From an uncultured Eubacteriales bacterium (GTDB lineage Bacteria; Acidobacteriota; Aminicenantia; Aminicenantales; Aminicenantaceae), in assembly GCA_964445575.1 (NCBI GenBank), contig CAYULB010000003.1:12343-76342 (forward strand): a DNA stretch of 64,000 bases, read 5' to 3'. Both the position numbers and the translations under genes were made by a program. Below, piece by piece: positions 33,457 to 53,054 of the stretch (the first letter of the stretch is position 1; each line of letters opens with the position of its first letter). The notes below the pieces were generated by a model. It saw only the letters and a list, made by a program, of their open reading frames with translations. It had not been told where the DNA came from and made no database searches.

Positions 33457-33468
33457 GGAGATCTAGCT

Positions 33469-34596
33469 ATGAAAAATTATCAAAGAAACAGGAAATCGAT
33501 TTTAAATCCAAAGGCCTGCCGTTATACGGCTTTGTTATTCGCGGGCGTTATGTTACTTGTGTCCATCGGTCACATCAGCGCCGAGAAGCTCCTTTTCCTG
33601 ACCTCCCTAGGTGGAGCCCGCGTCGCCGTGGACCATCAGATGAGGGTCTTTCCACCGCCGCCCGAGGAGGAACTGCTACTCATCATTGTGTATCCGCATC
33701 CAGACCAAGCCTTTTCCTTCGACGCTGGCAGCCCCGGGGAGCTTCGTATCGAGAGAGCCGTAGCCTTGGTCTTACCTGAAGAGTATGCCATAGAGTATGC
33801 CGACGAGATCGAGTGGTCAATCGATGACATAGGTGGGACACAGGCCGAAATCACGCCCGATCGCGGACCTGTCGTTGACATGGTCTTTCGAGGTCTTCCA
33901 GATCAAAACGATGACTTCGGAGAGAAGCGAATCACCGCGGCCGTCAGGGGCGTTTCTGACAGCGTCACCGTCCGGGCTTTCTTCGATCCACAGGCACAAA
34001 ACCATCCTGGAGGCGATAGTGAGCCGAACTGGTTTTATTATTGGAAGCAGATTGACAGCATTATTGGTGATCGTGATCGAAGCAGGTTAAGATACGAAGC
34101 TGGATTACAAGGTGAGGGAGGAGCACTGGTCACAGGCCAGTATAGATTTCCGCCTGATATCGTCATTCTTTCCGATGCCATTCTCAGTGCGAGCTGTGCT
34201 CAACGTATGATACCGACACGCCCTGGGCCGGGGCCGCACACATATGTTCCCACAGGCGTAAATGCGACAGGCATAGATTGTTTTGCAGAATCTGTTTGGC
34301 ACGAATGGCAGCATCGAGAGGACATGTTTAATTGGTGGGGATCCAGACTCAACTATGCGGTGAAACGAAACCTTTGGGAAGATTATGAAGACAAAGACAA
34401 CGATGATGTTCCACGCCACTATGAAGAGGCTGTGGGTTGGAGTGACAATTTCCCCCGTTGTAGCCCGAGTAGACCCTATCCCATTGTGAAGGATAATGAA
34501 TCTTATTCTTACTGGACAGGCTGGTTGTGGCAAATTAGTGCAGCCGATCACCAGGACTGGTCGCGGGACGGGAAACAGTGGCCAAGTGGCCAGTAA
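33469..34596 (+). CDS. Membrane-anchored hypothetical protein with HExxH (HEWQH) zincin-like motif
   Basis: N-terminal TM (YTALLFAGVMLLVSIGHI). SVWHEWQHRED motif followed by acidic stretch. 375 aa. Confidence 0.5.
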   Translation: MKNYQRNRKSILNPKACRYTALLFAGVMLLVSIGHISAEKLLFLTSLGGARVAVDHQMRVFPPPPEEELLLIIVYPHPDQAFSFDAGSPGELRIERAVALVLPEEYAIEYADEIEWSIDDIGGTQAEITPDRGPVVDMVFRGLPDQNDDFGEKRITAAVRGVSDSVTVRAFFDPQAQNHPGGDSEPNWFYYWKQIDSIIGDRDRSRLRYEAGLQGEGGALVTGQYRFPPDIVILSDAILSASCAQRMIPTRPGPGPHTYVPTGVNATGIDCFAESVWHEWQHREDMFNWWGSRLNYAVKRNLWEDYEDKDNDDVPRHYEEAVGWSDNFPRCSPSRPYPIVKDNESYSYWTGWLWQISAADHQDWSRDGKQWPSGQ

Positions 34597-34606
34597 TCGA
34601 AAACAG

Positions 34607-36532
34607 GTGAACCGGAAGAACAGCGGAGAATTGTGGCCGGCTCTTCTTGCCGGTGTTTGCCTTTTCGTCCCCCTGGTTTTTGATCCCCGGGGCCACCTTC
34701 CGTTCTTTCCGCCCAAGGAAGCCGTCCTTCTCTTCGGCGTTTCCCTGGCGGCGGCTGCCGTGGTCATCTGCAGGCTCCGGAGTAATAGCGCTTCAAGGAT
34801 TTTTTCCGCAACCCGGCTGCGACCTGACGTCACCATTCTTCTCCTGATGGCTTTGTTCTGGATCTGGAGCATCGCGGCCCCCTTGATGAAGATGGAGTCG
34901 GCAGCCGTTCACCTTCGGGGCACCATAAGGCTCACCGCGCTGGTCGCACTGGCCTTAGGTGCTGCGGCTGCAGCCGCAGCCGATCCGCGTTGGAGGGAAC
35001 GTTTTGCAACAGTAGCCGCCCTTCCCGCGATCGTCATGGCGTTACATGCCCTGTTTCAGGCAGCGGGATGCGATCCGCTTAACATCTTTGGGTACGAGCT
35101 GTCCGATCTGAAAGGAAGGTGGCGTGTCTTCACCACCACGGGCAATCCCAACTGGACAGCCGGCTATCTGGCAGCTACGTCGCCGCTTCTGGCTTGGGTG
35201 GTCCACCGCGCCATATGGTTCAGGAAACCTTGCTTGGCGTGGATTGCGCAGGCATCCGTCTGGTCAATTCTGACTGCAGCGGTGCTGACAACCGGATCAC
35301 GTCTGGGCCTGGCGGCGCTACTAGCCTCCGCTTTCTTGTGGTGGCAACATTTTAGATTTTCCTCGCTCTTCAGGAGGATAGGGACATTTATTGCCTGTAG
35401 TGCCCTTGCCGTCCTGATCGGGGTTGTGTCGGGATTTATTACTGCAGAACGCTTAACAGACAAGGCTTCAGTGGCGGGTCGCCTGATCTACGCACGAGCG
35501 GCGTGGGTCCTGATGGCAGACGCTCCGGTTACAGGCAGGGGGCTCGACCAATCAGGGCGGCTCCTTCCGAATGGCTTAGGTGAAGTCGTACCCCGACTTG
35601 GGCCGGGATGGACACCATGGATTCCAAAGACCCTTCTCGCTCGTGTGCCGAACGGCCTGCTTGAAACTACCATCGAGTCAGGCATAGTGGGTACGGCGCT
35701 TCTACTGGCCCTCTGGGCAATGGGACTGCACCGTGCGCTCTCCCGCAGCCGTGCCTGGAAAGGAGACCTTGTCCCTCTCGAAGCAGCCCTTGCCGGCGTT
35801 CTTGCCGCAACGGCAGTGTTGGCAATTGGGGACACACCTCTTCATAACCCCAACTTGGCGGTCTCTTTCTGGATGGTGGTGGGACTTTTAGCCGGTGGAG
35901 CTATCCGAGAGCAGATCAAGGCGCCGACCGTCACCGCTGAAGCGAATAGGTCATGGTCAGGGCGGGTTTTATATTTAGTACTAGCCGCAGCGGTACTCAT
36001 AGGCGCCTGGACCGCCGTGCGGCAGGGCTTAGTTACGCTAATCGTCAACCGTCAAGCCTACCAGGCACATGCGGCCTTCATCTATAACCGTGACGCTGAC
36101 GCGGAACGGATTTTTCGCAATATCCTGTCCCTCGATCCCACCCATCACGAATCATCTGTGGTTTTGAGCTGGTACTTGTTAGAGCAGGATCATCCACTGG
36201 AAGCGCTTGACCTGCTCGATCGCACGGAGCATTATGCTGTCTCGGCGGAAGCTTGGCTTGTCCGAGGGATTGCACTCCGTGACGCCGGCCGTCCGAAGGC
36301 CGCAGTTTCTGTGTTGGAGAATGCCGTAGCCGCAATTCCTGACCTTATGCGTGCCCACATCCTGCTCGGTGATATTTACGACGAGTTGGGTGACGCCCAG
36401 AGGGCAATGGAAGCTTACCGTCTTGTTCTGGAGAGCCCTCAAAATTCACCTGAGGCCCTCGCCTGGAAGGTACGCGTGCAGAAAAAGCTTTCCTGGCTCG
36501 ACTCCTGGGAAGAGCTGGATTTCAATTGGTAA
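34607..36532 (+). CDS. Wzy_C/O-antigen-ligase-like polytopic membrane protein with C-terminal TPR repeats
   Basis: About 10 TM helices with large periplasmic loop typical of Wzy_C (WaaL/PglL superfamily). C-terminal TPR-like repeats. Start is uncertain (GTG at 34607; ORF track 34496 overlaps the upstream gene). Confidence 0.65.
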   Translation: MNRKNSGELWPALLAGVCLFVPLVFDPRGHLPFFPPKEAVLLFGVSLAAAAVVICRLRSNSASRIFSATRLRPDVTILLLMALFWIWSIAAPLMKMESAAVHLRGTIRLTALVALALGAAAAAAADPRWRERFATVAALPAIVMALHALFQAAGCDPLNIFGYELSDLKGRWRVFTTTGNPNWTAGYLAATSPLLAWVVHRAIWFRKPCLAWIAQASVWSILTAAVLTTGSRLGLAALLASAFLWWQHFRFSSLFRRIGTFIACSALAVLIGVVSGFITAERLTDKASVAGRLIYARAAWVLMADAPVTGRGLDQSGRLLPNGLGEVVPRLGPGWTPWIPKTLLARVPNGLLETTIESGIVGTALLLALWAMGLHRALSRSRAWKGDLVPLEAALAGVLAATAVLAIGDTPLHNPNLAVSFWMVVGLLAGGAIREQIKAPTVTAEANRSWSGRVLYLVLAAAVLIGAWTAVRQGLVTLIVNRQAYQAHAAFIYNRDADAERIFRNILSLDPTHHESSVVLSWYLLEQDHPLEALDLLDRTEHYAVSAEAWLVRGIALRDAGRPKAAVSVLENAVAAIPDLMRAHILLGDIYDELGDAQRAMEAYRLVLESPQNSPEALAWKVRVQKKLSWLDSWEELDFNW

Positions 36533-41431: not shown

Positions 41432-44400
41432 ATGAAGAACAAACATTATCGAATGAATTTGATAGTTTGCGGAGGCTCCGCATGTGTTTCTAATAATTCT
41501 TTCGGGATCAAAAAGGCTCTGGAAACTGAACTCAAGAAAAAGGGATTGGATAAAGAAATCACAGTGTCCACTTCTGGATGCAATGGTTTCTGTGATACCG
41601 GTCCCCTTCTCATAGTGAAGCCTGACAATATTTATTACAATCACTTAAAAATCAAAGACATCCCTTATCTGGTGGAAGAGCATTTCTTAAAAGGACGTCC
41701 TGTGAAAAAAATGATGTTCATCCCTCCGGCAGAAGAAAGCATTATGCCCAAAATGAGCGAATTGGATTTTTTTAAAAAGCAGATCCTAATTGTATTGCGG
41801 AACAGAGGCCTTATTGATGCAGAAAAAATAAACGATTATATAGCTAAGGACGGGTACATGGCTTTGACAAAAGCACTGACTCAAATGACTCCCGACGAAG
41901 TCATAAACGAGATAAAAAAGTCAGGATTAAGGGGAAGAGGAGGAGCTGGTTTTCCGACAGGATTGAAATGGGAGCTGGTCAAAAAAGCAGAGGGAGACAA
42001 AAAGTATCTCATTTGTAACGGCGATGAAGGAGACCCCGGGGCTTATATGGACCGAAGCATTATTGAATCAGATCCTCATTCAGTGATTGAAGGAATGCTT
42101 ATTGGGGCCAGAGCCATTGGCGCTGACCAAGGAATTGTTTATATCCGCAATGAATATCCTATTGCTCTTAAAAGAATGAGCACAGCTATCGAACAAGCTC
42201 GGGAATATGGTCTTTTAGGAAAAGATATATTGGGAACTGGTTTTGATTTTGATTTGAAAATCATACGGGGAGCCGGTGCTTTTGTCTGCGGCGAAGAAAC
42301 CTCTCTGATAGCCTCTATTGAAGGACGCTTAAGCGAACCCAGACCCAGACCGCCATTTCCAGCCCAGAGCGGACTCTATGGAAAGCCTACCAACATCAAC
42401 AATGTTGAGACCTGGGCTAATGTTCCTGTCATCATAAACCGGGGAGCGGACTGGTACTCATCCATTGGAACAGAATCCAGCAAGGGAACAAAAGTATTTT
42501 CAGTTGTGGGTAAAGTTAAAAATACCGGGCTGGTAGAAGTGCCCATGGGGACCACTTTAGGAGAAATCATATTTGATATCTGCGGAGGAATTGCTGATGA
42601 CAAAAAGTTTAAAGCCGTTCAAATCGGAGGCCCTTCAGGAGGATGTATCCCGGCTGAACTTCTCAATCTGCCGGTTGACTATGAAAGCCTGACCGATGCC
42701 GGGGCCATGATAGGATCGGGAGGAATGGTGGTCACTGATGAAAGCACCTGTATGGTCGACCTGGCTCATTTTTTTCTTGCTTTTATAAAAGATGAATCCT
42801 GCGGAAAATGTACCCCCTGCCGAGAAGGGATCCCCAAAATGCTGGAATATTTAAAAAGCATTAAGGAAGGCACTGCAGATATGAAAGTCCTTGATGACCT
42901 AGAAGCCCTCGCCTGGACCATAAAAGATTCATCTCTATGCGGACTTGGAAAAACAGCTCCCAATCCATTTCTCACCACTTACCGCTACTTTAAAAACGAG
43001 TACATTGATCATATTAAATACAAAAGATGTCCGGCAGGAGTATGCTTTCATCTTGTCTCAGCCCCCTGTCACCACACCTGTCCTATAGGAACAGAAGCAA
43101 GCTCCTATATTGCTCTCATGGCACAGGAAAAATTTGATGAAGCTCTTGAGGTCAACTATTGGGTCAATCCCTTACCCAGCGTATGTTCCAGGGTGTGTCA
43201 CCATCCCTGTGAGTCAAAGTGTAAAGCCGGTCTTTTTGACAAACCCATTGCCATAAGATCCTTAAAAAGGTTTATAACCGACTATGCAGCAAACAACGGC
43301 AAAAAACATAAAGTCAGCCCTTTAAAAAAGCAGCATGAAAAAGTAGCCATTGTGGGTTCAGGACCAGCAGGCCTGATGGCGGCATGGGAACTGGGGAAGA
43401 AAGGATATGATGTTACCATTTTTGAATCTGAATCCATCCCAGGCGGCATGCTTGCATGGGGAATTCCTGAGTACCGCCTTCCTAAGAAAGTTCTTTCTGC
43501 AGAAATAGATGCTATCCTTGATTTAGGAATAAATCTTAAAACCAACACTAAAGTCGGCAAGGACATCTCTATAAATGAGCTGTTCAATCAAGGATATAAA
43601 TCAGTCTTTATCGCTGCCGGAGCTCCTCAAAACATCAAACTGGGTATCCCCGGAGAAGATTCAGAAGGAGTCATAGACCCCATAAAATTTCTAAAGGAAT
43701 ATAATTTAAAGGACCAATCAAAAATCGGAAAGAAAGCAGTGGTAGTGGGCGGAGGAAACACAGCCCTGGATACAGCAAGAACAGCTCTCCGGCTGGGCTC
43801 AGAAGTGACTATTCTCTACCGAAGAAACAGAAATGAAATGCCTGCAAACATAGAAGAAATCGAAGAAACACTAGAAGAAGGAATAAAAATTCAATTTTTG
43901 ACCATTCCCATCAAAGCTCATTCCCAAAACGGCCGCCTCCATAAAATCACTTGTCAGAAGATGGAGCTCGGAAAATTCGACAAATCCGGAAGAAGAAAAC
44001 CTGAACCTCTAAAAGGAAGCGAATTTGACATCCCTGCTGACACCCTCATTCCCGCCATCGGCCAGAAGCCTGACTTGGCATTTTTAGAAGGAAACTCAGG
44101 ACTAAAGGTGACCTCCTGGAACACTCTGGAAGTCAACCCTGAAACCATGGAGACCAACAAACCTGGTGTGTTTGCCGGAGGAGATGTGGTCTCAGGTCCT
44201 GCCACAGTTCTGGAAGCCATGAAAGCAGGCCAAAAAGCAGCAGAATCTATCCACAGATATTTAAGAGGCCATTCTTTAACCCACGATTATCTTCCTACCA
44301 CATCGAAACTAGAAGTCCCTGCTGTTGAAGTCAGTGCTGAAGAGAGGGACTACGACCAAACCCGTCCCTTCTCCCCTAAACTGCCTCCTGAAGAACGCAT

Positions 44401-44509
44401 AAGGAATTTTAACGAAGTGGAACACAGCATGAGTAAAGACGCGGCGGTTAAAGAAGCCCAGAGATGTCTGAGATGTGACCTGGAAAGCCTAAGAATAAAA
44501 GGAGAGTAA
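41432..44509 (+). CDS. Fused NuoE-like [2Fe-2S] + NuoF-like (NADH/FMN/4Fe-4S) + 2x[4Fe-4S] + GltD-like FAD/NAD(P) oxidoreductase (1025 aa)
   Basis: CGGSAC...TSGCNGFCDTGP. GRGGAGFPTGLKWE (NuoF FMN/NADH). ESCGKCTPCREG. Rossmann VAIVGSGPAGLMAAWELGKKGYDVTIFE and VVVGGGNTALDTAR (GltD-like). Confidence 0.8.
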   Translation: MKNKHYRMNLIVCGGSACVSNNSFGIKKALETELKKKGLDKEITVSTSGCNGFCDTGPLLIVKPDNIYYNHLKIKDIPYLVEEHFLKGRPVKKMMFIPPAEESIMPKMSELDFFKKQILIVLRNRGLIDAEKINDYIAKDGYMALTKALTQMTPDEVINEIKKSGLRGRGGAGFPTGLKWELVKKAEGDKKYLICNGDEGDPGAYMDRSIIESDPHSVIEGMLIGARAIGADQGIVYIRNEYPIALKRMSTAIEQAREYGLLGKDILGTGFDFDLKIIRGAGAFVCGEETSLIASIEGRLSEPRPRPPFPAQSGLYGKPTNINNVETWANVPVIINRGADWYSSIGTESSKGTKVFSVVGKVKNTGLVEVPMGTTLGEIIFDICGGIADDKKFKAVQIGGPSGGCIPAELLNLPVDYESLTDAGAMIGSGGMVVTDESTCMVDLAHFFLAFIKDESCGKCTPCREGIPKMLEYLKSIKEGTADMKVLDDLEALAWTIKDSSLCGLGKTAPNPFLTTYRYFKNEYIDHIKYKRCPAGVCFHLVSAPCHHTCPIGTEASSYIALMAQEKFDEALEVNYWVNPLPSVCSRVCHHPCESKCKAGLFDKPIAIRSLKRFITDYAANNGKKHKVSPLKKQHEKVAIVGSGPAGLMAAWELGKKGYDVTIFESESIPGGMLAWGIPEYRLPKKVLSAEIDAILDLGINLKTNTKVGKDISINELFNQGYKSVFIAAGAPQNIKLGIPGEDSEGVIDPIKFLKEYNLKDQSKIGKKAVVVGGGNTALDTARTALRLGSEVTILYRRNRNEMPANIEEIEETLEEGIKIQFLTIPIKAHSQNGRLHKITCQKMELGKFDKSGRRKPEPLKGSEFDIPADTLIPAIGQKPDLAFLEGNSGLKVTSWNTLEVNPETMETNKPGVFAGGDVVSGPATVLEAMKAGQKAAESIHRYLRGHSLTHDYLPTTSKLEVPAVEVSAEERDYDQTRPFSPKLPPEERIRNFNEVEHSMSKDAAVKEAQRCLRCDLESLRIKGE

Positions 44510-44510
44510 A

Positions 44511-44756
44511 ATGCCTGGGAAAAAACTTTATATCGGTAATTTATACTGTCTTGCAGATAAAGAAAACCTTAGAAAACTTTTTTCCAAATATGGAAAAATT
44601 GTGAGCATAGATATGATTCAGGGAACCGGCTACGGTTATGTAGAGATGTCAAATGCTGCAGAAGCTACGGCGGCTATGAAAGGATTAGATGGCAAAGAAT
44701 TTCTTGAGCGAGTTATTAAAGTTAAATACGCTGACCATCCAATTTACCTTCAGTAG
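44511..44756 (+). CDS. RRM-domain RNA-binding protein
   Basis: RNP-2 LYIGNL and RNP-1-like GYGYVEM. 81 aa. Start 1 nt after the flavoprotein stop. Confidence 0.7.
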   Translation: MPGKKLYIGNLYCLADKENLRKLFSKYGKIVSIDMIQGTGYGYVEMSNAAEATAAMKGLDGKEFLERVIKVKYADHPIYLQ

Positions 44757-44802: not shown

Positions 44803-45570
44803 TCATTCATAAGGACGGGAAGCAACGCCCTTTATTTTCCATCCACTTGCCTGCTTTATCATACTCCAGTCATACCAGCCTTCAAACAATAACTTTCGGC
44901 TCCCTCCCACTCTGGGGAGCCCTGTTATTATTAAGGAAATGCTGACATCAGCGCTTTTTTCGTCTCTAAATAAAACATAAATATCAGAGATGCAGATGTT
45001 GACCCGGTCATAAGTTCGAGTCATCCACTCTGCATCCTCCTTAACCTCAGGATAAAATTCAGAAGTACTGTTCATTTTATAAAAGGAGAGGAGGCTGTTG
45101 CCTTCCAGCGCTTGTGCATATTCTGCAATTAGAGATCTGATCTTATCTTCCTCTTGTTCCAGATTGGATGCAGCGACTTCTGGCTTCTCAGGTTCTTTTT
45201 CCACCTGAGATTCTTCTCTCTTCTCTTCTTTCTCCCTGGTGACAGGTTTTTCTTCCTCCTCTTTTTTTGGCTTTTCTGTCTCCTGCAGTTCTTCAGTAAA
45301 CATCTGATTCAAATACCCCTCACCCAGTCCATATTGTTCTGAATTGAGTTTTACTTTATACCAGCCACCTGTCCTATCAATCACTTCAAAAACAGCCCCC
45401 AGAGGAGGAGAAGAGATAATCTTGCTCTGCACATTAGGTTCCACTCTAATACTTGAATTCTTTACAATAACCCGCACTTTCTTAACCTGGGCATAGGAAA
45501 CATCCGAGAAAAGAAGTCCAAAAATTATGATCAGTCCCCCTAAAACCTTAATGCCAGGAATAGCTTTCAT
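44803..45570 (-). CDS. Secreted SH3b-domain protein with E/K-rich linker and C-terminal NTF2-like domain paralogous to kinase C-terminus
   Basis: Signal peptide. SH3b-like VRVIVKNSSIRVEPN...GGWYKVKL. C-terminal ~100 aa, about half of aligned positions identical to the C-terminus of the 45595-47850 product. Confidence 0.5.
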   Translation of the reverse strand: MKAIPGIKVLGGLIIIFGLLFSDVSYAQVKKVRVIVKNSSIRVEPNVQSKIISSPPLGAVFEVIDRTGGWYKVKLNSEQYGLGEGYLNQMFTEELQETEKPKKEEEEKPVTREKEEKREESQVEKEPEKPEVAASNLEQEEDKIRSLIAEYAQALEGNSLLSFYKMNSTSEFYPEVKEDAEWMTRTYDRVNICISDIYVLFRDEKSADVSISLIITGLPRVGGSRKLLFEGWYDWSMIKQASGWKIKGVASRPYE

Positions 45571-45594
45571 GGTGCCTCCTTTAATCTTATTCCA

Positions 45595-47850
45595 TTACTT
45601 ATTGGAGGGTTGAGAACTCACTCCTGCAATTTTCCAGGCACTCTGCTGCTTTATCATATTCCATTTGTAGATCCCTTCAAAAAGTGCTTGTTGGATTCCA
45701 TCTCGTCTGGAAGTGCCCGTAATGATAAGAGAAATATTCACTTCTGCTGTGTGTTCATCCTCAAATCGGACAGATACATCTGATACAAAACTCTTCAAAT
45801 CTTTATAAGTCATCATGAGCCATTCCGCATCTTTTCTTATCTCAGGAAATAATTCAGACGTGCAGTTCCTTCTGTAGAACGAAATCAGTTCGTTGTTTTG
45901 CAGAGAATTGCTGTATTCCTTCACCATACTTCGAAAGCCTTTTTCATCAATCTTCTGCTGGGATAAGACTGAATATTCCTCTGCCTGTGGATTCTCAGGA
46001 TCAATCTTTAAAACCTCAGACATAACTGCAAGGGTTTCTTCATAATTTTCTTTTTCAAACTCTCGGATCCCCGAACCGATTTTACCAGCAATGAGGGCTT
46101 CCTTCTCCTTATCAACCTTCTCTTCTGACCCCACGTCACTCTTTACTGCTTCTTCCTCACGTTGAGTATCTGTCTTTTGAGTCAGTGATTCAGGCTTTTT
46201 TTCTTCAGATTCTGTCTTCTTTGATTCCTCAGGAGTGACTTTAGTTTCTGAAGGTTTTTCTGCAGAAACTTGTTTCTTTCCAGATTCCAGGGATGTTTTA
46301 TCAACTCCCGTTAAACTTTTCTCCTTGCTTTTTTCTTCAGTCTTCCCTGCACTTAAGCTCGCTTCCATTTCTTTCAATCGTTCTTCGATCTTATTGTGCT
46401 GCTCATCCTGAGGTGCTGTTTCTAGATATTTTTTATAAAAGGAGTGTGCCCCCATTAAATCATCCTTTTTATCAAATATCTCAGCAAGTTTCAGGTAAGC
46501 CCTGGGGTCAGAAGGATCTATTTCAACCATTCTGTTGTATTCTTCAGCCACCTCATCTGTTTTTCCTTGTTTCTCGAGTATTTCAGCGATTCTCACCCGC
46601 GCCTCCAGATTATGGGGCTCTTCATCCAATACATTTCTGAACAGGCTCAAAGCTTCTTCCAGTTTATTTTCATTTATCAGCTTTTCTCCGAAAGCAAAAT
46701 AATCCGTTTTCTGTAAAGGGATATCCCCTGCGAGTGTTTTATCCCGAAGCTCTCCTTTATAATCTCCTTTAAAGGGAATCAGCTTCCAAACAGTTAAACC
46801 TATTAGAGCGGCTAAAGCGACTACTGAAATTCCGGCCAAAACCTTTTTAATATTAAACTTGACTGTGATCTCTTTTGAGGTAAAAGGTCTGCTTTTGGGC
46901 ATGACTCTTTCCGTTGTGGGTATGTCTTTTTCTATATTCTTAAGTTCTTCCAGAAGCTCATTGGTATCTTGATATCTACTTTGTTTATCTTTTTCCAGAC
47001 ACTTAAGAATCAATTGATTCAGTTCTTCAGGTATCTGGTCATTAAGTTTCTTGGGCTCTTGAGGCATTTCGCTTTTGTGTTTGATGGCAACACTCAGAGC
47101 TGTTTCTCCTGAAAATGGAGTGCGTCCCGTGACCATTTCATAAAGAATAATCCCCAATGAGTAAATATCTGACCGCTTATCCACGTCTTTGGCAGAGGCC
47201 TGTTCCGGCGACATATATTCTGGGGTCCCTATCACTGTTCCTGCATCTGTAATGCTTTTGCTTTTTACAAAACGGGCCACTCCAAAATCCATGATCCGCA
47301 CATTCCCTTCTTTATCGATCATGATATTCTGGGGTTTTAAATCCCGATGGACGATGCCAAGGGCATGGGCTTCGGAAAGACCGGAACAGATCTGTTTTGC
47401 TATAAAAATCGCTTTCCCTGCACTCAAGGGCCCTACCCTTTTCATGGTGCTCTTCAGATCCTCTCCCAGCACATACTCCATGATGATGTAATAAAGCCCT
47501 CTTTCCTCCCCAAAATGATACATGCGGCAGATATTTCTATGTGAGATTCTGCGGGCCAGTTTTATCTCATTGCTGAACCGCTCAATGTATTTTTTGTCAA
47601 TCGAGATTTCAGGCTTTAAGAGTTTAAGAGCTACTTCTTCTTTTATTTTGATGTCCTCTACCCGGTAAACTCTACCCATTCCCCCTCTTCCCAGTTCTTC
47701 TATGATTTCATACCGGCCTGCAAATTTCATTCCCCTTTTTAATTCATAAACAGGTGTTTCAAGAGTCGCAGTCTGGGAATTAGAAAAATTCTCAGAATTT
47801 TGGTTGAAACTATTTTGGTTTCTCTTTTTCTCCCCGGCCATAAGGAACAC
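45595..47850 (-). CDS. Hanks-type Ser/Thr protein kinase with TM helix, periplasmic TPR repeats and C-terminal NTF2-like domain
   Basis: GRGGMGRVY, VALK, HRDLKPQNIMI, DFGVA, GTPEYMSPE. Single TM VLAGISVVALAALIGLTVW. TPR-like repeats. E/K-rich linker. Confidence 0.85.
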   Translation of the reverse strand: MFLMAGEKKRNQNSFNQNSENFSNSQTATLETPVYELKRGMKFAGRYEIIEELGRGGMGRVYRVEDIKIKEEVALKLLKPEISIDKKYIERFSNEIKLARRISHRNICRMYHFGEERGLYYIIMEYVLGEDLKSTMKRVGPLSAGKAIFIAKQICSGLSEAHALGIVHRDLKPQNIMIDKEGNVRIMDFGVARFVKSKSITDAGTVIGTPEYMSPEQASAKDVDKRSDIYSLGIILYEMVTGRTPFSGETALSVAIKHKSEMPQEPKKLNDQIPEELNQLILKCLEKDKQSRYQDTNELLEELKNIEKDIPTTERVMPKSRPFTSKEITVKFNIKKVLAGISVVALAALIGLTVWKLIPFKGDYKGELRDKTLAGDIPLQKTDYFAFGEKLINENKLEEALSLFRNVLDEEPHNLEARVRIAEILEKQGKTDEVAEEYNRMVEIDPSDPRAYLKLAEIFDKKDDLMGAHSFYKKYLETAPQDEQHNKIEERLKEMEASLSAGKTEEKSKEKSLTGVDKTSLESGKKQVSAEKPSETKVTPEESKKTESEEKKPESLTQKTDTQREEEAVKSDVGSEEKVDKEKEALIAGKIGSGIREFEKENYEETLAVMSEVLKIDPENPQAEEYSVLSQQKIDEKGFRSMVKEYSNSLQNNELISFYRRNCTSELFPEIRKDAEWLMMTYKDLKSFVSDVSVRFEDEHTAEVNISLIITGTSRRDGIQQALFEGIYKWNMIKQQSAWKIAGVSSQPSNK

Positions 47851-48237: not shown

Positions 48238-49170
48238 CTATCTGGTTATAATTTCTGATGTTTTGGTTACCCGGTTTCTTCCGCACTGTTTTGAATGATA
48301 CAGAGAGCGGTCAGCGTCTTCAATAAGCTGCTTATAGTCATGATACCTTTTTTTTGCCTGGGTGCAGGCTATTCCTAAGCTGACTGTTATTTTAATCTCT
48401 TTTCCTTCTGAGCAAACAGGCGACTTTTGTATTTTTTCTCGAACCCTTTCTGCATAAACTCCAGCCCCCTTTTCATCTGTATTTCTGAGGATTATTGAAA
48501 ATTCTTCTCCCCCATATCGTGCAAAAATATCAGACTCCCTACACACTGATTTTATTGATTCCGCCAATTTAATCAAAATATGGTCCCCTGCTAAATGCCC
48601 GTACTTATCGTTTATTTCTTTAAAGTGGTCAATATCAATCATGACCAGTGATAATGGAATTTCATATCTTTCCCCATGGCTCATTTCTTCTTTCAGTCGT
48701 TCTATAAAATACCTTTTATTATAAACCCCTGTTAAAGGGTCTCTGACCCCTAATTCATACAGTTCATCAATAGCCACTTTCTCGTCTTCATCAGCAAAAA
48801 AGAACTTAAAAATAGTGAGAGGACTCAGATGAATCTTGTCATTCTGCTTCAATGTTTTTTTCTTTATTTTTTCGCCATTGACAAAAGTTCCGTTGGTGCT
48901 TCCCTGGTCTTCTATGAAAGCTTTTTCGCCCTTCAATTCTAATTTCAGATGTTTTCTTGAAATCCGTTTATCATTGATCACAATATCCGAATCCTGCTGC
49001 CTGCCAATAAAAATGGTTCCTTCCGTGAGAGGAAAAAGTTGCCCCTTTAAAGGACCTGACAGAAAAAAAAGATAGGCTTTCTTTGGTTTTTCTTCAACCA
49101 AACCTGTTACAGAAGTATTCGCAGTTTGGTCAATTAATTCTTCCTGGTCTTTTTTCTTTTTACTCTTCAT
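48238..49170 (-). CDS. FHA-domain diguanylate cyclase (FHA-GGDEF)
   Basis: FHA (FIGRQQDSDIVINDKRISRKHLKL...GSTNGTFVNG). GGDEF (RYGGEEF), D.DHFK.IND. Confidence 0.85.
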   Translation of the reverse strand: MKSKKKKDQEELIDQTANTSVTGLVEEKPKKAYLFFLSGPLKGQLFPLTEGTIFIGRQQDSDIVINDKRISRKHLKLELKGEKAFIEDQGSTNGTFVNGEKIKKKTLKQNDKIHLSPLTIFKFFFADEDEKVAIDELYELGVRDPLTGVYNKRYFIERLKEEMSHGERYEIPLSLVMIDIDHFKEINDKYGHLAGDHILIKLAESIKSVCRESDIFARYGGEEFSIILRNTDEKGAGVYAERVREKIQKSPVCSEGKEIKITVSLGIACTQAKKRYHDYKQLIEDADRSLYHSKQCGRNRVTKTSEIITR

Positions 49171-49185
49171 GTTTTCTACTCTTAA

Positions 49186-51273
49186 CTATTTACATTGTTT
49201 TGTCAAAATCAAATTTCCAAATTTCCCGACTACAGCTTTCCATGCCGGTCCAAATACAGTGGTTGACTCTCTCTCTTCAATCACTGCAGGCCCTTTTATT
49301 AAATGTCCGCACATCAACCTGTCTCTTTCATAAATCCGACATTCCAAGTTTTTATCCCCGATCCACACCTTTCTCAATTCTTTATGTCCGGGACATTTGT
49401 TTTTTCCGACTTTCTCAATGTTATTGAATGCAGGCTTCTTTCTGACCTCAAGGGCTTTTATCCTTAAATTGACCACTTGGATTTCTTCTTCAGGAGCTTT
49501 GTGTCCGTATATCTTTTCATGCTGTTCATGAAACTTTGATTTTGTATTCGCAATATCTGATTCTGACAAGAAATGCGCAGGCATACTGATATTTAATTCA
49601 TAGTTCTGTTTGGCTAATCTCATATCTGCACTGATTAGCACTTTTTGGTTCTTTTCTAAAACCTGGTGTTCCTCAAACCATTTTTGGCTCTTCTTCTTAA
49701 GAGAAGACAAACCCTCATTTATTTGCTCTCTATTTTTTTCTAAGCTCACCATGAGAGTCTCGGCAAAATCTGTGCTCATGTCAGCAAAGAGCAGCCCCAA
49801 GCTTGAAAACAATCCTGCCATTCTAGGAATCACCACTCGGGATATAGACATTCTTTCAGCTAACTCAAAAGCATGAAGAGGCCCTGCCCCCCCGTAAGCT
49901 ATTAAAGTAAAATCTCTCGGGTCATGCCCTCGAGAAATGGATAAAAGGCGAAGTATCCTCAGCATGCTGGCATTGGCAATGGAAATAATGCCAAATGCAG
50001 ATTCAACCTCACTCATGTTCATGGGACCACCCAGCTTCTTTGAGATGGCTTCATGTGCCAGCTTTTTTTCCAGCTTCATCTCCCCTCCTAAAAAATTTGT
50101 AGGGGAAAGTCTTCCCAGCAGAAGATGGGCATCTGTCACAGTCGGGTTTTCTCCTCCTTTCCCGTAACCTGCCGGACCCGGATAAGCTCCAGCACTTTGG
50201 GGGCCCACTTTTATGTGCCCTCCTTTATCAATCCAGGCAATACTTCCCGCCCCAGCTCCGCATTCAACCACATCTATCATGGGAGTCCTCACAGTATATC
50301 CGCTTCCTTTCTGCCTCCCCCCCGAGTGAAGCTCTCCTCCAACTTCATACTCTGGAGTATAAGCAAGAACATTGTTTCGTATCATCCCGGCTTTAGCAGT
50401 GGTCCCACCCATATCAAAGGCAATCACTTTATCCATTCCAAGCTTCTTGGACAGATTCAAAGCTCCGATCAGACCTGCGGCAGGGCCTGATTCAATAAGA
50501 GTATGAGGCTTGTCTTCAGCCCGTTCTGGATCTGATACCCCTCCTCCGGAATGCATAATGGCCAGGGGTATGGATTTCCCTCCTGCACAGCTTAGTTTCT
50601 CTCTTATGGCTCTTAGATAATTTATTACTTTAGGAGCAACCGCTGCAGCTATAACCGTTGTGGATGCTCGTTCATACTCACGAAATTCTGGAGAGACTTC
50701 ATGGGAGAGGTATATTGGCTTTCCGCCTAATATTTTTTGGGCTGCTTTCTTAATCTCAGTTTCATGTTCTAGCACATTAAAGGAGAAAATAAGCACCACG
50801 GCCAACGCTTCAATATCTTCATTTTTCAGTTCTTTTAATTTTCTTTCTGCGTCTTTCTTGTTTAGAGACAGAAGAATTTTCTTATCAGCAGTAATTCTCT
50901 CTTGAACCTCCTTGACAAGATATCTTGGAACCAAAGGGATTTTCCGGTCTTCCATCAAATCATACAAATCAGGACGCTGCTGCCGGCCGATTTCTAAAAT
51001 ATCTTTAAAACCTTGAGTGACTATCAATCCGATTTTGGAAGTCTTCCCTTCCAATAAAGAATTGGTCACAATGGTAGTCCCGTGTATAATGATTTTAACA
51101 GCTGATATTTTCTTCCCTGCCTCACAAAGAACCTTGGTGAGTCCTTTAATAAAGGCTTCCTCAGGATTTTCAGGTGAAGATCTGACTTTTGACTTCCAAA
51201 ACTCTCCTGTTTTATCATCATAGAGGATGGTATCTGTAAAGGTTCCTCCGATATCAACAGCTGCCCTTATCAT
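49186..51273 (-). CDS. hyuA: Hydantoinase/oxoprolinase family protein, HyuA-type subunit
   Basis: N-terminal DIGGTFTDT actin-like ATPase fold. 695 aa. Overlaps hyuB by 4 nt. Confidence 0.85.
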
Positions 51274-53054
51274 TGCTTTCCCTCTTTTGATTTTTTCTTT
51301 CTCAGCTTTCTAGTGGCAGTTGTGTCAACCTCTCCTTTCTCGGTAATCTCCACCCCGTATTCAGACCGGGCTTTGGCACGAGTGACTTTTCCATTTAAAA
51401 AATCGTCTCTCACTTGCTCAACTGCTCTTTTAAGGGGAGAGCCGTAACCTCCGCCTCCTGCAGTCTTGAATTTAAGCACTTCATTTTTTTGAATCAGTAT
51501 TTCTGATGATTTTGACCTTAATTTTTGTTCTTTTCCTGAATTTCTATGGACCTTAAAACTTCCTCTGCCACCCGGCTTCCCTCCAAATAGCCCCCAGGGA
51601 GATGCTTTGTGCCTGTCAGAGTGGGCTGAAAACAATAAGGGTACCAGGGCTTGAACATGTTTTCGGATTCCCAGGCCCCCTCTAAATCGCCCCGGACCAC
51701 CAGAGTCAGGAATAAGCTCATATTTGAGAACGCGAAGAGGATATTCCATTTCCATAGCTTCTATGGGCAGATTCGAGGTGTTGGTAATGTTCACCTGAAC
51801 TCCGTCTTGACCGTCTTTTTCTTTTCTGGCCCCCATTCCTCCTCCCAGAGCTTCTACATACACAAAATCTTCCCCTGATAATGACTTTGTTCCTCCAAAA
51901 ATAACCGCTGTGGTCGCTCCATTTGAGGCTGCGGTGATTTTTTCTGGCATTATTTTTGAGAAAGACCCCATTATCACATCCACAACTCTTTGAGCTGTAT
52001 CAGTTCTCCCCCCCACTGGAGCAGGTTCTTCAGCATTGACCAGAGTTCCCCGAGGGGCAGTGATTTTTATGGGTTTCATGAATCCTTGATTGATTGGAAT
52101 CTCAGGGACAATAACAGCTTTCACAGAATAATAGACCGTGGCCAGCAGAGCCTGCCATACCATATTGATCCCCCCGGAAGCCTGAGGATCAGTTCCGGAA
52201 AAATCAAATTCAATAGAGGGAAAGGGCTTATGCGATATTTTGACACCTGCTTTTATTCTGAGCCGCTTATTATTCACTCCGTCATCATCCATCACATCTT
52301 CAAATGAATAGTTCCCCTCAGGAATCTCTGACAATGCTTTCTCCAGCCAATGCTGGCTATAATGAAATATCTCTGCAATAACCTCTTCAACTTTTTCTAT
52401 GCCGTAGGTCTCATACAATTCAAGAAGCCTTCTCGCTCCCAGCTTAAGTGAAGCCACCTGTGCTCTGAGGTCCCCCTCCCTTTCCGGTCGATTCCTCATA
52501 TTTGAGAGGATGATCTCCATCATGTCTTTCTGAAAATCTCCTTCTTTAACCAATCTTGAAGGGGGTATGCGGACTCCTTCCTGAAAAAGCTCTGTAGAAT
52601 CTCCTGCAGTTCCCACTCCTGGAGAACGTCCTCCCACATCTGTCCAGTGAGCAATATTCGCGGTGAATCCAATAAGATTTTTCTTAAAAAAAACAGGTTT
52701 CACTAAAGTGATATCCGGCAGATGGGACCCTCCTCCTAAATAGGGATCGTTGGCAATCATTATGTCACCTGGTTTGAAATTCCATTCTTCTTTACTTTTT
52801 CCGATTCTGCTCATCAACCCCTGCATGGAACCCAAATGGATGGGAATGTTTTCCGCTAAGACTATGAGCTGTCCCTTTTTATTGAAAATAGCGCAAGAAC
52901 AATCTTTTCTTTCTTTAATGTTGGTGGAATAAGCGGACCTAACCAGAGATGTACTCATTTCTTCAGATATGGATCGGAAAGAATTCAAAATGACTTCAGA
53001 AGTGATAGGGTCTGCTTTGTTTTTCATGGTATTAGCTAATTTCTTTAATAACAC
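51270..53054 (-). CDS. hyuB: Hydantoinase B/oxoprolinase family protein, HyuB-type subunit
   Basis: 594 aa with family-typical blocks (DITLVKPVF, GGGGYGSP). Confidence 0.85.
   Translation of the reverse strand: MLLKKLANTMKNKADPITSEVILNSFRSISEEMSTSLVRSAYSTNIKERKDCSCAIFNKKGQLIVLAENIPIHLGSMQGLMSRIGKSKEEWNFKPGDIMIANDPYLGGGSHLPDITLVKPVFFKKNLIGFTANIAHWTDVGGRSPGVGTAGDSTELFQEGVRIPPSRLVKEGDFQKDMMEIILSNMRNRPEREGDLRAQVASLKLGARRLLELYETYGIEKVEEVIAEIFHYSQHWLEKALSEIPEGNYSFEDVMDDDGVNNKRLRIKAGVKISHKPFPSIEFDFSGTDPQASGGINMVWQALLATVYYSVKAVIVPEIPINQGFMKPIKITAPRGTLVNAEEPAPVGGRTDTAQRVVDVIMGSFSKIMPEKITAASNGATTAVIFGGTKSLSGEDFVYVEALGGGMGARKEKDGQDGVQVNITNTSNLPIEAMEMEYPLRVLKYELIPDSGGPGRFRGGLGIRKHVQALVPLLFSAHSDRHKASPWGLFGGKPGGRGSFKVHRNSGKEQKLRSKSSEILIQKNEVLKFKTAGGGGYGSPLKRAVEQVRDDFLNGKVTRAKARSEYGVEITEKGEVDTTATRKLRKKKSKEGKQ

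What the first reader, a model, noticed from the sequence alone, without database searches (positions are those of the whole stretch)
44803..47850. Ser/Thr kinase and adjacent secreted SH3b protein share a paralogous C-terminal (NTF2-like?) domain
The last ~100 residues of the kinase (…LISFYRRNCTSELFPEIRKDAEWLMMTYKDLKSFVSDVSVRFEDEHTAEVNISLIITGTSRRDGIQQALFEGIYKWNMIKQQSAWKIAGVSSQP) align with the C-terminus of the downstream secreted protein (…LLSFYKMNSTSEFYPEVKEDAEWMTRTYDRVNICISDIYVLFRDEKSADVSISLIITGLPRVGGSRKLLFEGWYDWSMIKQASGWKIKGVASRP), with about half of aligned positions identical. In the kinase the domain follows a TM helix, TPR repeats and an E/K-rich linker, so it is extracytoplasmic. The partner carries the same domain behind a signal peptide, an SH3b domain and an E/K-rich linker. 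A receptor kinase plus a soluble paralog of its sensor domain suggests a ligand-sharing, co-receptor or decoy arrangement. I am not aware that this has been described.
Basis: seen in the sequence. Interest (0 to 1): 0.65.

Follow-up and report, generated by a model that had tools for sequence, protein, structure and literature searches.

The report
Receptor kinase with SH3b partner sharing NTF2 domain
A membrane Ser/Thr kinase and the secreted SH3b protein encoded right after it really do share a duplicated NTF2-like end domain, but relatives show this is a lineage-specific variant of a wider, undescribed kinase-plus-SH3b-accessory gene pair whose accessory normally ends in an outer-membrane barrel.

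Summary
The kinase (45595-47850, minus strand) and the next gene (44803-45570, minus strand) share a C-terminal domain: 48% identity over 132 aa, E 2e-39. It is not low-complexity. AlphaFold2 (pLDDT 95) and Foldseek place it in the NTF2-like fold. No Pfam or NCBIfam model covers it.

The family is rare: 133 clusters among 1.84 billion. The domain almost always sits at the extreme C-terminus, mostly in kinase-TM-TPR-NTF2 proteins.

The gene pair is conserved in every related Aminicenantes/Acidobacteriota locus recovered. The two copies form separate orthologous groups, both under purifying selection. The partner's copy branches with the local kinase copy, so it is a duplicate of the kinase's own domain.

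In more distant relatives the kinase is still followed by a gene with the same signal peptide and SH3b module. There the partner ends in an outer-membrane beta-barrel or PEGA/NHL domains, not NTF2. So the SH3b module is the constant part, and the NTF2 copy is one of several interchangeable C-terminal modules.

Best reading: a two-gene envelope sensor made of a receptor kinase and an SH3b co-receptor. Here the co-receptor probably docks to the kinase tip, or to the same site, through paired NTF2 domains. The mechanism is inferred, not shown.

The parts
45595..47850 (-). Receptor Ser/Thr kinase gene (751 aa from GTG; gene callers use the ATG 3 codons later, 748 aa)
   Evidence: ORF. Pfam Pkinase 217 bits. 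Called as 748 aa in the Logan assemblies.
46969..47712 (-). Hanks-type catalytic domain (aa 47-294) with the catalytic motifs intact: GRGGMG, VALK, HRDLKPQN, DFG, SPE
   Evidence: Pfam domain limits. Motif positions.
46786..46842 (-). Single transmembrane helix (aa 337-355), which places the C-terminal 396 aa outside the cytoplasm
   Evidence: Hydropathy and flanks. The same single TM is seen in about 60 family kinases.
46399..46704 (-). Periplasmic TPR repeats (aa 383-484)
   Evidence: Pfam TPR_19, TPR_14, TPR_11 and TPR_2.
46069..46398 (-). E/K/S/T-rich low-complexity linker (aa 485-594)
   Evidence: Composition is 71% E/K/S/T/D/P/Q over aa 495-600.
45598..45981 (-). Kinase copy of the NTF2-like domain ('NTF2x', aa 624-751)
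   Evidence: BLASTP. AF2 model pLDDT 95. Foldseek NTF2-like matches.
45575..45581 (-). Shine-Dalgarno AAGGAGG, 4 nt before the partner's ATG. The gap after the kinase stop is 24 nt, with no terminator-like site in it.
   Evidence: Sequence read. Terminator scan.
44803..45570 (-). Secreted SH3b-NTF2x partner gene (255 aa)
   Evidence: ORF. The exact protein is found in 4 independent Logan assemblies with the same context.
45490..45570 (-). Signal peptide (aa 1-27, cleavage after SYA)
   Evidence: Read from the sequence. Equivalent signal peptides are present in all orthologues.
45286..45486 (-). SH3b module (aa 29-95), the part of the partner conserved across the whole family
   Evidence: Pfam SH3_3 31.9 bits. 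Homologous SH3b in the partners of all related loci.
45184..45285 (-). E/K/P-rich linker of the partner (aa 96-129)
   Evidence: Sequence.
44806..45183 (-). Partner copy of the NTF2-like domain (aa 130-255)
   Evidence: BLASTP. HMM E 4e-43. Forms its own orthologous clade.
48238..49170 (-). FHA-GGDEF protein directly upstream on the same strand. It is a candidate phospho-threonine reader and output in this genome only.
   Evidence: Pfam FHA and GGDEF. Present in the window's own lineage but absent from the related loci.

Best explanation
This is a two-gene cell-envelope signalling unit. The first gene encodes an active-looking Hanks-type kinase anchored in the inner membrane by one helix. Its periplasmic arm consists of TPR repeats, a long flexible linker and an NTF2-like domain at the tip. 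The second gene is co-transcribed and encodes a secreted accessory protein. Its N-terminal SH3b module is constant across the family, and SH3b is a domain class that typically binds peptidoglycan. Its C-terminal module is interchangeable: an outer-membrane beta-barrel in most relatives, PEGA/NHL in some, and in this Aminicenantes lineage a duplicate of the kinase's own NTF2-like tip.

The accessory most likely acts as a co-receptor that couples the kinase's periplasmic arm to an envelope structure. In the window's lineage the membrane anchor was exchanged for the kinase's tip domain. The accessory would then associate with the kinase tip by NTF2-NTF2 pairing, or go to the same docking site. 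Either way it would control kinase clustering and activation.

In this genome the phospho-signal is probably read by the FHA-GGDEF protein encoded immediately upstream, giving a c-di-GMP output.

Shown: the domain content, the paralogy, the fold, the conservation of the pair, the old duplication from the local kinase copy, purifying selection on both copies, and the variable C-terminus of the partner.

Inferred: physical interaction, peptidoglycan binding, the direction of regulation and the output.
For: - Paralogy is 48% over 132 aa, E 2e-39.
- The fold is NTF2-like.
- The kinase motifs are intact.
- The partner has a strong RBS, a 24-nt gap and no terminator, indicating an operon.
- The pair is conserved in all 7 genome loci and all close metagenome loci.
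- The copies form separate groups: K-K 67%, S-S 63%, K-S 46% identity.
- The S clade has 298/300 bootstrap support. S plus the local kinase copies group at 251/300.
- Median dN/dS is 0.15 for the kinase copy and 0.21 for the partner copy.
- The partner copy keeps all family-conserved residues.
- In distant loci the kinase is next to a protein with the same signal peptide and SH3b, ending in an OM barrel (Pfam OMP_b-brl, E 3e-8 to 2e-5; C-terminal Phe) or in PEGA/NHL.
- The partner's SH3b is closest to the co-directional barrel type, about 46% against 32% for the convergent type.
- The same TM-TPR-NTF2x arm is fused to TIR instead of a kinase in 8 members, so it behaves as a portable extracytoplasmic module.
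- Solved precedents among the fold hits: the NTF2-like domain of the RsgI9 ectodomain, and the NTF2-like intermembrane-space domains of ARC6/PARC6 co-crystallised with the outer-envelope partner PDV1.
- OM-anchored accessories feeding a Hanks kinase are documented for TagQ/TagR-PpkA-Fha1 (PMC7817224).
Against: - No interaction was tested. The structure-prediction quota allowed only single-domain models, so NTF2-NTF2 pairing rests on what the fold usually does.
- Net charges of the two copies are both mildly negative, so there is no obvious electrostatic complementarity.
- The ancestral partners lack NTF2x. The partner's role therefore does not depend on that domain, and the constant SH3b could be what contacts the kinase.
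- FHA-GGDEF adjacency is not conserved outside the window's own lineage, and no FHA or PP2C neighbour is enriched.
- Three of the four barrel hits are just below Pfam's gathering score.
- Three family loci (L015, L024, L026) show no SH3b neighbour. Two of these are not kinases, and one has only 0.5 kb of flank.
Confidence: 0.5

Rival explanations
1. Ligand sharing or decoy. The NTF2-like cone is a small-molecule or peptide binding pocket that serves as the kinase's sensor. The soluble partner binds the same ligand. It then either presents the ligand to the kinase, as a periplasmic binding protein does, or titrates it away as a decoy.
For: The partner copy retains every residue that is conserved across the family, including F35, Y36, Y59, G89, F101, E102, G103, W107, W116 and I118. 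It is under purifying selection. Many NTF2/SnoaL-like relatives among the fold hits are ligand-binding or enzymatic cones, and the best PDB profile hit is a designed cortisol binder.
Against: The conserved residues are mostly aromatic or glycine, which is typical of a fold core, and no polar catalytic or binding motif stands out. Partners in most relatives lack the domain altogether, so a ligand-sharing role cannot be the ancestral reason for the gene pair. No ligand is suggested by the neighbouring genes.
Confidence: 0.2
2. Common address tag. NTF2x is a localisation domain that binds a fixed envelope component. The partner acquired it only to be placed at the same site as the kinase tip, replacing the barrel anchor, without direct NTF2-NTF2 contact. 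The functional contact with the kinase is made by SH3b.
For: The partner's C-terminal modules in relatives (OM barrel, PEGA/NHL) are all anchoring or surface modules, and SH3b is the only constant part. NTF2-like domains that act in localisation or partner capture appear among the fold hits: Bd1075 and ARC6/PARC6.
Against: The copy derives from the kinase's own domain rather than from some other anchor. That is the simplest way to create a homotypic contact. No candidate docking component is encoded nearby.
Confidence: 0.2
3. No functional link. This would be a tandem partial duplication that happens to persist next to the kinase, with the two proteins working independently.
For: No interaction data exist. 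The operon could simply reflect inheritance.
Against: SH3b adjacency is retained across kinases whose NTF2x is only 27-42% identical to the window's, and through three different partner architectures. Overlapping or near-abutting ORFs and a dedicated RBS indicate co-expression. Both copies are under purifying selection, and the duplication predates at least eight species-level lineages.
Confidence: 0.07

Closest known systems
PASTA-domain receptor kinases (PknB / PrkC / StkP)
   Same: Hanks-type kinase, a single TM and an extracytoplasmic arm thought to read the state of the cell wall. The catalytic domain is the best NCBIfam match (NF033483, 375 bits, kinase part only).
   Different: There are no PASTA repeats, and the score is below the family cutoff of 450. 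The arm is TPR plus NTF2-like. The likely wall-binding domain (SH3b) sits on a separate secreted protein. The host is a diderm-type Acidobacteriota lineage.
TagQ/TagR-PpkA-Fha1 threonine phosphorylation pathway of P. aeruginosa H1-T6SS
   Same: A Hanks-type inner-membrane kinase whose activation depends on periplasmic or outer-membrane accessory proteins, with an FHA protein reading the signal (PMC7817224). In relatives of this window the accessory is OM-anchored, and in the window an FHA protein is encoded next door.
   Different: The accessory proteins are not homologous. There is no T6SS context, and the ectodomain is different. The accessory here shares a paralogous domain with the kinase. 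FHA adjacency is not conserved.
RsgI9 anti-sigma factor ectodomain (S1C-NTF2, PDB 7sjy)
   Same: The closest solved relative of the domain by sequence: 25% identity, Foldseek E 1e-5 and a weak profile hit. It is also an NTF2-like domain in the extracytoplasmic part of a single-pass signalling protein (PMC12203970).
   Different: The cytoplasmic output is an anti-sigma domain, not a kinase. The NTF2 domain is paired with a peptidase-like sensor domain in the same chain. There is no paralogous partner protein.
ARC6/PARC6 intermembrane-space domain with PDV2/PDV1
   Same: An NTF2-like domain at the C-terminal tip of an inner-envelope single-pass protein captures a protein anchored in the outer envelope. 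Foldseek hits 5had, 5d9r, 5u9o and 6jzn have E 5e-5 to 5e-4. This matches the ancestral arrangement here: an inner-membrane kinase with an NTF2x tip, plus an OM-barrel partner.
   Different: It is a plastid-division system with no kinase. Identity is only 10-13%. The captured element is a short C-terminal peptide rather than an SH3b protein.
NTF2 homodimers, NXF1-NXT1 heterodimer and the CaMKII hub (from general knowledge of the fold)
   Same: NTF2-like domains commonly pair or oligomerise. NXF1-NXT1 is a heterodimer of paralogous NTF2-like domains, one in a large multidomain protein and one in a small partner. CaMKII is a kinase whose C-terminal NTF2-like hub controls assembly, and hub structures are among the fold hits.
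   Different: These are eukaryotic, cytoplasmic or nuclear systems, with identity near 10%. Pairing was not tested here.

Membership tests
NTF2-like fold superfamily | An alpha+beta cone: three N-terminal helices packed against a long curved antiparallel sheet | tested here: met
   The AF2 model (pLDDT 95, pTM 0.86) has elements H2-28, H32-39, H45-58, E59-75, E78-91, E97-112 and E115-125. Foldseek gives probability 1.0 and TM 0.73-0.79 to 3ef8, 2chc, 3gzr and 3soy.
Pfam SnoaL_4 (PF13577), the nearest sequence family | Score at or above the gathering threshold of 24 bits | tested here: not met
   The partner scores 17.0 bits (E 0.006). The kinase copy is not among the 25 best of its 37 listed families. 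Only 15 of 61 family members match at E<=0.01, best 6.9e-5. The domain is an uncurated divergent NTF2-like family.
Hanks-type (eukaryotic-like) Ser/Thr kinases | Pkinase domain with Gly-loop, VAxK lysine, HRD catalytic loop, DFG and APE-type motifs | tested here: met
   PF00069 scores 217 bits against a cutoff of 31.7. GRGGMG 54-59, VALK 73-76, HRDLKPQN 168-175, DFG 188-190 and SPE 214-216 are all present.
PASTA kinases (NF033483) | Extracellular PASTA repeats and a whole-protein score of at least 450 | tested here: not met
   The score is 375 bits and covers only profile positions 2-279, the kinase part. No PASTA family is among the Pfam hits shown (best 25 of 37).
Bacterial SH3 (SH3_3, PF08239) | Score above the gathering threshold of 27 bits | tested here: met
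   The score is 31.9 bits, E 1.6e-7, over aa 40-87 of the partner. Peptidoglycan binding itself was not tested.
Outer-membrane beta-barrel partners (OMP_b-brl, PF13505): the relatives' partner, not the window's | Beta-barrel profile match and a C-terminal aromatic residue | tested here: inconclusive
   Four of the 6 partners scanned hit PF13505, at 25.1-34.4 bits against a cutoff of 28.7. One is above the cutoff and three are just below. Of the 12 sequences printed, 10 of the 11 partner proteins end in Phe and L018's ends in Leu; the twelfth is the L014 NTF2x fragment. The window's partner has no barrel.
TagQRST-PpkA type accessory system | vWA periplasmic domain on the kinase, TagR/TagQ homologues and a T6SS gene neighbourhood | tested here: not met
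   Pfam hits shown for the ectodomain are TPR-type. Neighbours are metabolic genes, with no T6SS genes. TagR/TagQ homology was not searched specifically.

The most novel reading that the evidence does not exclude
The family is a previously unrecognised class of trans-envelope Ser/Thr-kinase sensors. The NTF2-like tip of an inner-membrane kinase captures a dedicated SH3b accessory protein that is itself fixed to the outer membrane, surface layer or peptidoglycan, so that kinase activity reports envelope geometry or integrity. The window's lineage would then show a new wiring principle, in which the accessory's membrane anchor is replaced by a paralogue of the receptor's own tip to create a heterodimeric receptor/co-receptor pair.
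Probability: 0.18. Interest if true: 0.72.

Novelty: new variant of a known kind. Interest (0 to 1): 0.5.

Why it matters
What bacterial Hanks-type receptor kinases sense is known for very few ectodomains, mainly PASTA. This work defines a rare, uncurated extracytoplasmic module, TPR plus an NTF2-like tip. It is used by kinases and also by TIR proteins, and where kinase loci could be examined it travels with a dedicated secreted SH3b protein.

The natural series of partner architectures (OM barrel, PEGA/NHL, NTF2 paralogue) works as an evolutionary experiment. It shows which part of the accessory is constant and which part only provides placement. That yields concrete, testable interaction hypotheses for envelope sensing in Acidobacteriota/Aminicenantes, a group with almost no experimental signalling data.

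It also adds a bacterial case of a kinase carrying a C-terminal NTF2-like domain, otherwise known from the CaMKII hub.

Tried and rejected
- **Word-indexed protein searches.** The kinase's domain gave nothing, the 42-sequence domain alignment gave only 9 short hits, and the SH3b alignment gave nothing. The index is insensitive for this lineage. The exhaustive HMMER search was what worked.
- **PDB sequence searches.** These gave no hit or only marginal ones.
- **Locus search with A3.** The alignment was too diverse for back-translation. Smaller alignments A4 and A5 worked.
- **Tree scripts.** The first timed out. The second had a distance-cap bug that gave NaN values and low support. The corrected run is.
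- **Charge complementarity between the copies.** Not supported, since both are mildly acidic. A fixed difference remains in the beta-hairpin loop: kinase S[KR]xD[GR]xxQ against partner PR[VA]GGxRK.
- **Conserved signalling neighbours (FHA, PP2C).** None were found. The enriched families only reflect synteny of housekeeping genes.
- **Promoter scan.** Hits were not above the shuffle expectation.
- **RNA genes.** Rfam and tRNA scans of the window were empty.
- **Orphan NTF2x ORF in L014.** It is a C-terminal half with upstream stops, so probably a remnant.
- **Multimer prediction.** This could not be run.
Full report
**1. The observation.**

The two minus-strand ORFs are as described. The first is a 751-aa protein at 45595-47850 and the second a 255-aa protein at 44803-45570. 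BLASTP gives a single strong local alignment, kinase 617-748 against partner 126-253. It has 48% identity, 68% positives and E 2e-39 with compositional adjustment. Everything else between the two proteins is noise.

Pfam finds Pkinase (217 bits) and TPR families in the first protein and SH3_3 (31.9 bits, cutoff 27) in the second. The shared C-terminal region gets only a sub-threshold SnoaL_4 hit, at 17 bits against a cutoff of 24.

The kinase has all the catalytic motifs and one hydrophobic helix at aa 337-355. A 396-aa tail follows, made of TPR (383-484), a roughly 110-aa E/K/S/T-rich linker and the shared domain at 624-751. The partner has a signal peptide (cleavage after SYA27), SH3b at 29-95, an E/K/P linker and the shared domain at 130-255.

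The partner's ATG is preceded by AAGGAGG and lies 24 nt after the kinase stop, with no terminator-like site between them.

**2. What the shared domain is.**

A two-sequence AF2 model was already NTF2-like (pLDDT 80; Foldseek). With a 42-sequence family alignment the model reached pLDDT 95 and pTM 0.86, showing three helices followed by four long strands.

Foldseek against the PDB gives probability 1.0 to NTF2/SnoaL-like structures, with TM 0.73-0.79 for 3ef8, 2chc, 3gzr and 3soy. The closest by sequence is the NTF2 domain of the extracytoplasmic part of the C. thermocellum anti-sigma factor RsgI9 (7sjy, 25% identity). Other hits include the intermembrane-space domains of ARC6/PARC6 (some co-crystallised with PDV1), CaMKII hubs and Bd1075.

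Sequence-only searches of the PDB are marginal. Neither Pfam nor NCBIfam has a model that reaches threshold. I call the domain NTF2x.

**3. The family.**

An exhaustive HMMER search of 1.84 billion cluster representatives found 133 proteins at E<=1e-3, of which 83 were at E<=1e-10. That makes the family rare.

The domain ends within a few residues of the C-terminus in almost all of them. About 60 have an N-terminal Pkinase domain followed by a single TM. Many of the remainder look like 5'-truncated kinases.

Among the non-kinase members, 24 of 61 have TPR and 8 have an N-terminal TIR domain in place of the kinase. So TM-TPR-NTF2x is a portable extracytoplasmic arm that can be attached to different cytoplasmic signalling domains.

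**4. Conservation of the pair.**

A scan of species-representative genomes gave seven loci, all from Aminicenantes/Acidobacteriota MAGs. In all seven the kinase gene is followed on the same strand, abutting or overlapping, by a signal-peptide-SH3b-NTF2x gene. One of these is cut by the contig end. L007 also shares the window's wider synteny (RRM protein, NuoF-GltD fusion, ferredoxin, HTH, RR-PAS-HK). Six further close loci from metagenomes show the same pair.

The window's exact partner protein occurs in four independent Logan assemblies with identical context.

Across the eight lineages (the window and L001-L007), kinase copies are 67% identical to each other on average and partner copies 63%. 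Kinase against partner is only 46%, and 40-53% within the same genome. The two copies are therefore separate orthologous groups with no concerted evolution.

In a neighbour-joining tree of 82 family domains the partner copies form a clade (298/300 bootstraps). That clade groups with the kinase copies of the same lineage (251/300). The partner's domain is thus a duplicate of the local kinase's own tip (two searches were failed or flawed runs). Median dN/dS is 0.15 for the kinase copy and 0.21 for the partner copy. The partner copy retains every family-conserved residue.

**5. The key comparative result.**

The metagenome scan also returned loci whose kinase NTF2x is only 27-42% identical to the window's. 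In L014, L016/17, L018, L019/20, L021, L022 and L023 the kinase is again adjacent to a gene with a signal peptide and an SH3b module clearly homologous to the window's (E 1e-9 to 1e-17). That protein is 360-430 aa long and has no NTF2x.

Its C-terminal half has the alternating pattern and terminal Phe of an outer-membrane beta-barrel. It hits Pfam OMP_b-brl at E 3e-8 to 2e-5, with one protein above the gathering score and three just below.

Two further loci were reached through exact-protein look-ups. In these, the NTF2x-bearing gene is followed by signal-peptide-SH3b (E 4e-19 and 3e-21) fused to PEGA, plus NHL in one case.

Some loci carry a second, convergent SH3b-barrel gene. The window partner's SH3b is closer to the co-directional type (about 46%) than to the convergent type (32%). 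So the window's partner is the orthologue of the co-directional SH3b-barrel gene, with its barrel exchanged for a copy of NTF2x.

No FHA, PP2C or other signalling gene is consistently nearby. The unit is the two genes. The FHA-GGDEF gene directly upstream in the window is present in the window's own lineage but not in the relatives.

**6. Mechanism.**

The following points are shown:
- an apparently active receptor kinase with a long periplasmic arm ending in an NTF2-like domain;
- a co-transcribed secreted SH3b protein, adjacent in every kinase locus recovered with enough flanking sequence;
- interchangeable C-terminal modules on that protein, one of which is a selected duplicate of the kinase's tip.

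The rest is inferred. The SH3b protein is an accessory or co-receptor that connects the kinase arm to an envelope structure. SH3b domains generally bind peptidoglycan, and barrels and PEGA/NHL modules place proteins in the outer membrane or at the surface.

In this lineage the accessory is probably held at the kinase tip by NTF2-NTF2 pairing, which is a common behaviour of the fold. Alternatively it is sent to the same docking site as the tip.

Receptor Hanks kinases are generally activated by ectodomain-driven dimerisation. That is established for PknB and PknD, and I state it here from general knowledge. An accessory that pairs with the tip could therefore either bridge kinases or cap them.

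The nearby FHA-GGDEF protein is a plausible reader of the phospho-signal in this genome.

Three rivals are scored separately: ligand sharing or decoy, a shared address tag with SH3b as the true contact, and no functional link. The last is disfavoured because adjacency persists across deep divergence and three partner architectures.

**7. Comparison with known systems, and novelty.**

The kind of system, a receptor kinase plus extracytoplasmic accessory proteins, is known. An example is TagQ/TagR-PpkA-Fha1 (PMC7817224). Extracytoplasmic NTF2-like domains on single-pass signalling proteins are also known from RsgI9 (PMC12203970; PDB 7sjy).

This is not a PASTA kinase, and it has no T6SS context. 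Literature searches found no description of an NTF2-tipped kinase family or of its SH3b partner. JGI even labels some family members 'translation initiation factor 2 alpha subunit'.

I rate it a new variant of a known kind. Interest is moderate: the module is rare, confined so far to uncultured lineages, and its mechanism is unproven. The natural domain-swap series does, however, give unusually clear hypotheses to test.

Noticed in passing
family members P0007, P0019, P0049, P0051, P0057, P0061, P0071, P0075 and similar (not in the window): Eight NTF2x family members carry an N-terminal TIR domain (TIR_2, E down to 3e-23; ThsB_TIR in 7). These are probably the listed proteins, which have a 160-240-aa non-kinase N-terminus before the TM-TPR-NTF2x arm. 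The per-protein assignment was not checked. This would be a membrane TIR protein with the same extracytoplasmic arm. Whether these also have SH3b partners is unknown.
   Followed up: partly
window 48238-49170 (-): An FHA-GGDEF protein lies directly upstream of the kinase on the same strand, after a hydantoinase A/B pair (49186-53054). It is a plausible phospho-threonine reader giving a c-di-GMP output. It is present in the window's own lineage (L027) but not next to the kinase in related genomes.
   Followed up: partly
window about 31777-36532: A block with 56% G+C sits in a window of about 39%. It encodes a HEAT-repeat protein (559 aa), a 375-aa protein with no Pfam hit and a Wzy_C (O-antigen-ligase-like) protein with C-terminal TPR. 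It may be a horizontally acquired island.
   Followed up: partly
L014:4168-4443 (+): An orphan 92-aa ORF encodes only the C-terminal half of an NTF2x domain. It resembles the L015/P0010 type, has stop codons upstream, and lies between two SH3b-barrel genes. It is probably a pseudogene remnant of another NTF2x gene.
   Followed up: partly
L004:4981-5853, L005:5305-6207, L011:3515-4417, L014:4519-5556, L019:4646-5548 (all minus strand): A second, convergent SH3b-linker-barrel gene ('type B', SH3b about 32% identical to the window's) follows the pair in several loci. The window and L007 have an RRM-protein gene at that position instead.
   Followed up: partly
window 41432-44509 (+) and 44511-44756 (+): A 1025-aa fusion of a NuoF-like flavoprotein (Complex1_51K, NADH_4Fe-4S) with a GltD-like pyridine-nucleotide oxidoreductase is followed, with only 1 nt between them, by an 81-aa RRM RNA-binding protein. 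The arrangement is syntenic in L007.
   Followed up: no
L032:2925-4710: The kinase-NTF2x gene appears split into a 334-aa kinase ORF and a 238-aa TPR-NTF2x ORF. This is a frameshift, an assembly error or a genuine split gene. Its SH3b partner carries PEGA repeats.
   Followed up: no
P0137, P0139 (JGI metagenome proteins): Short NTF2x family members are annotated by JGI as 'translation initiation factor 2 alpha subunit (eIF-2alpha)'. This looks like a mis-annotation.
   Followed up: no
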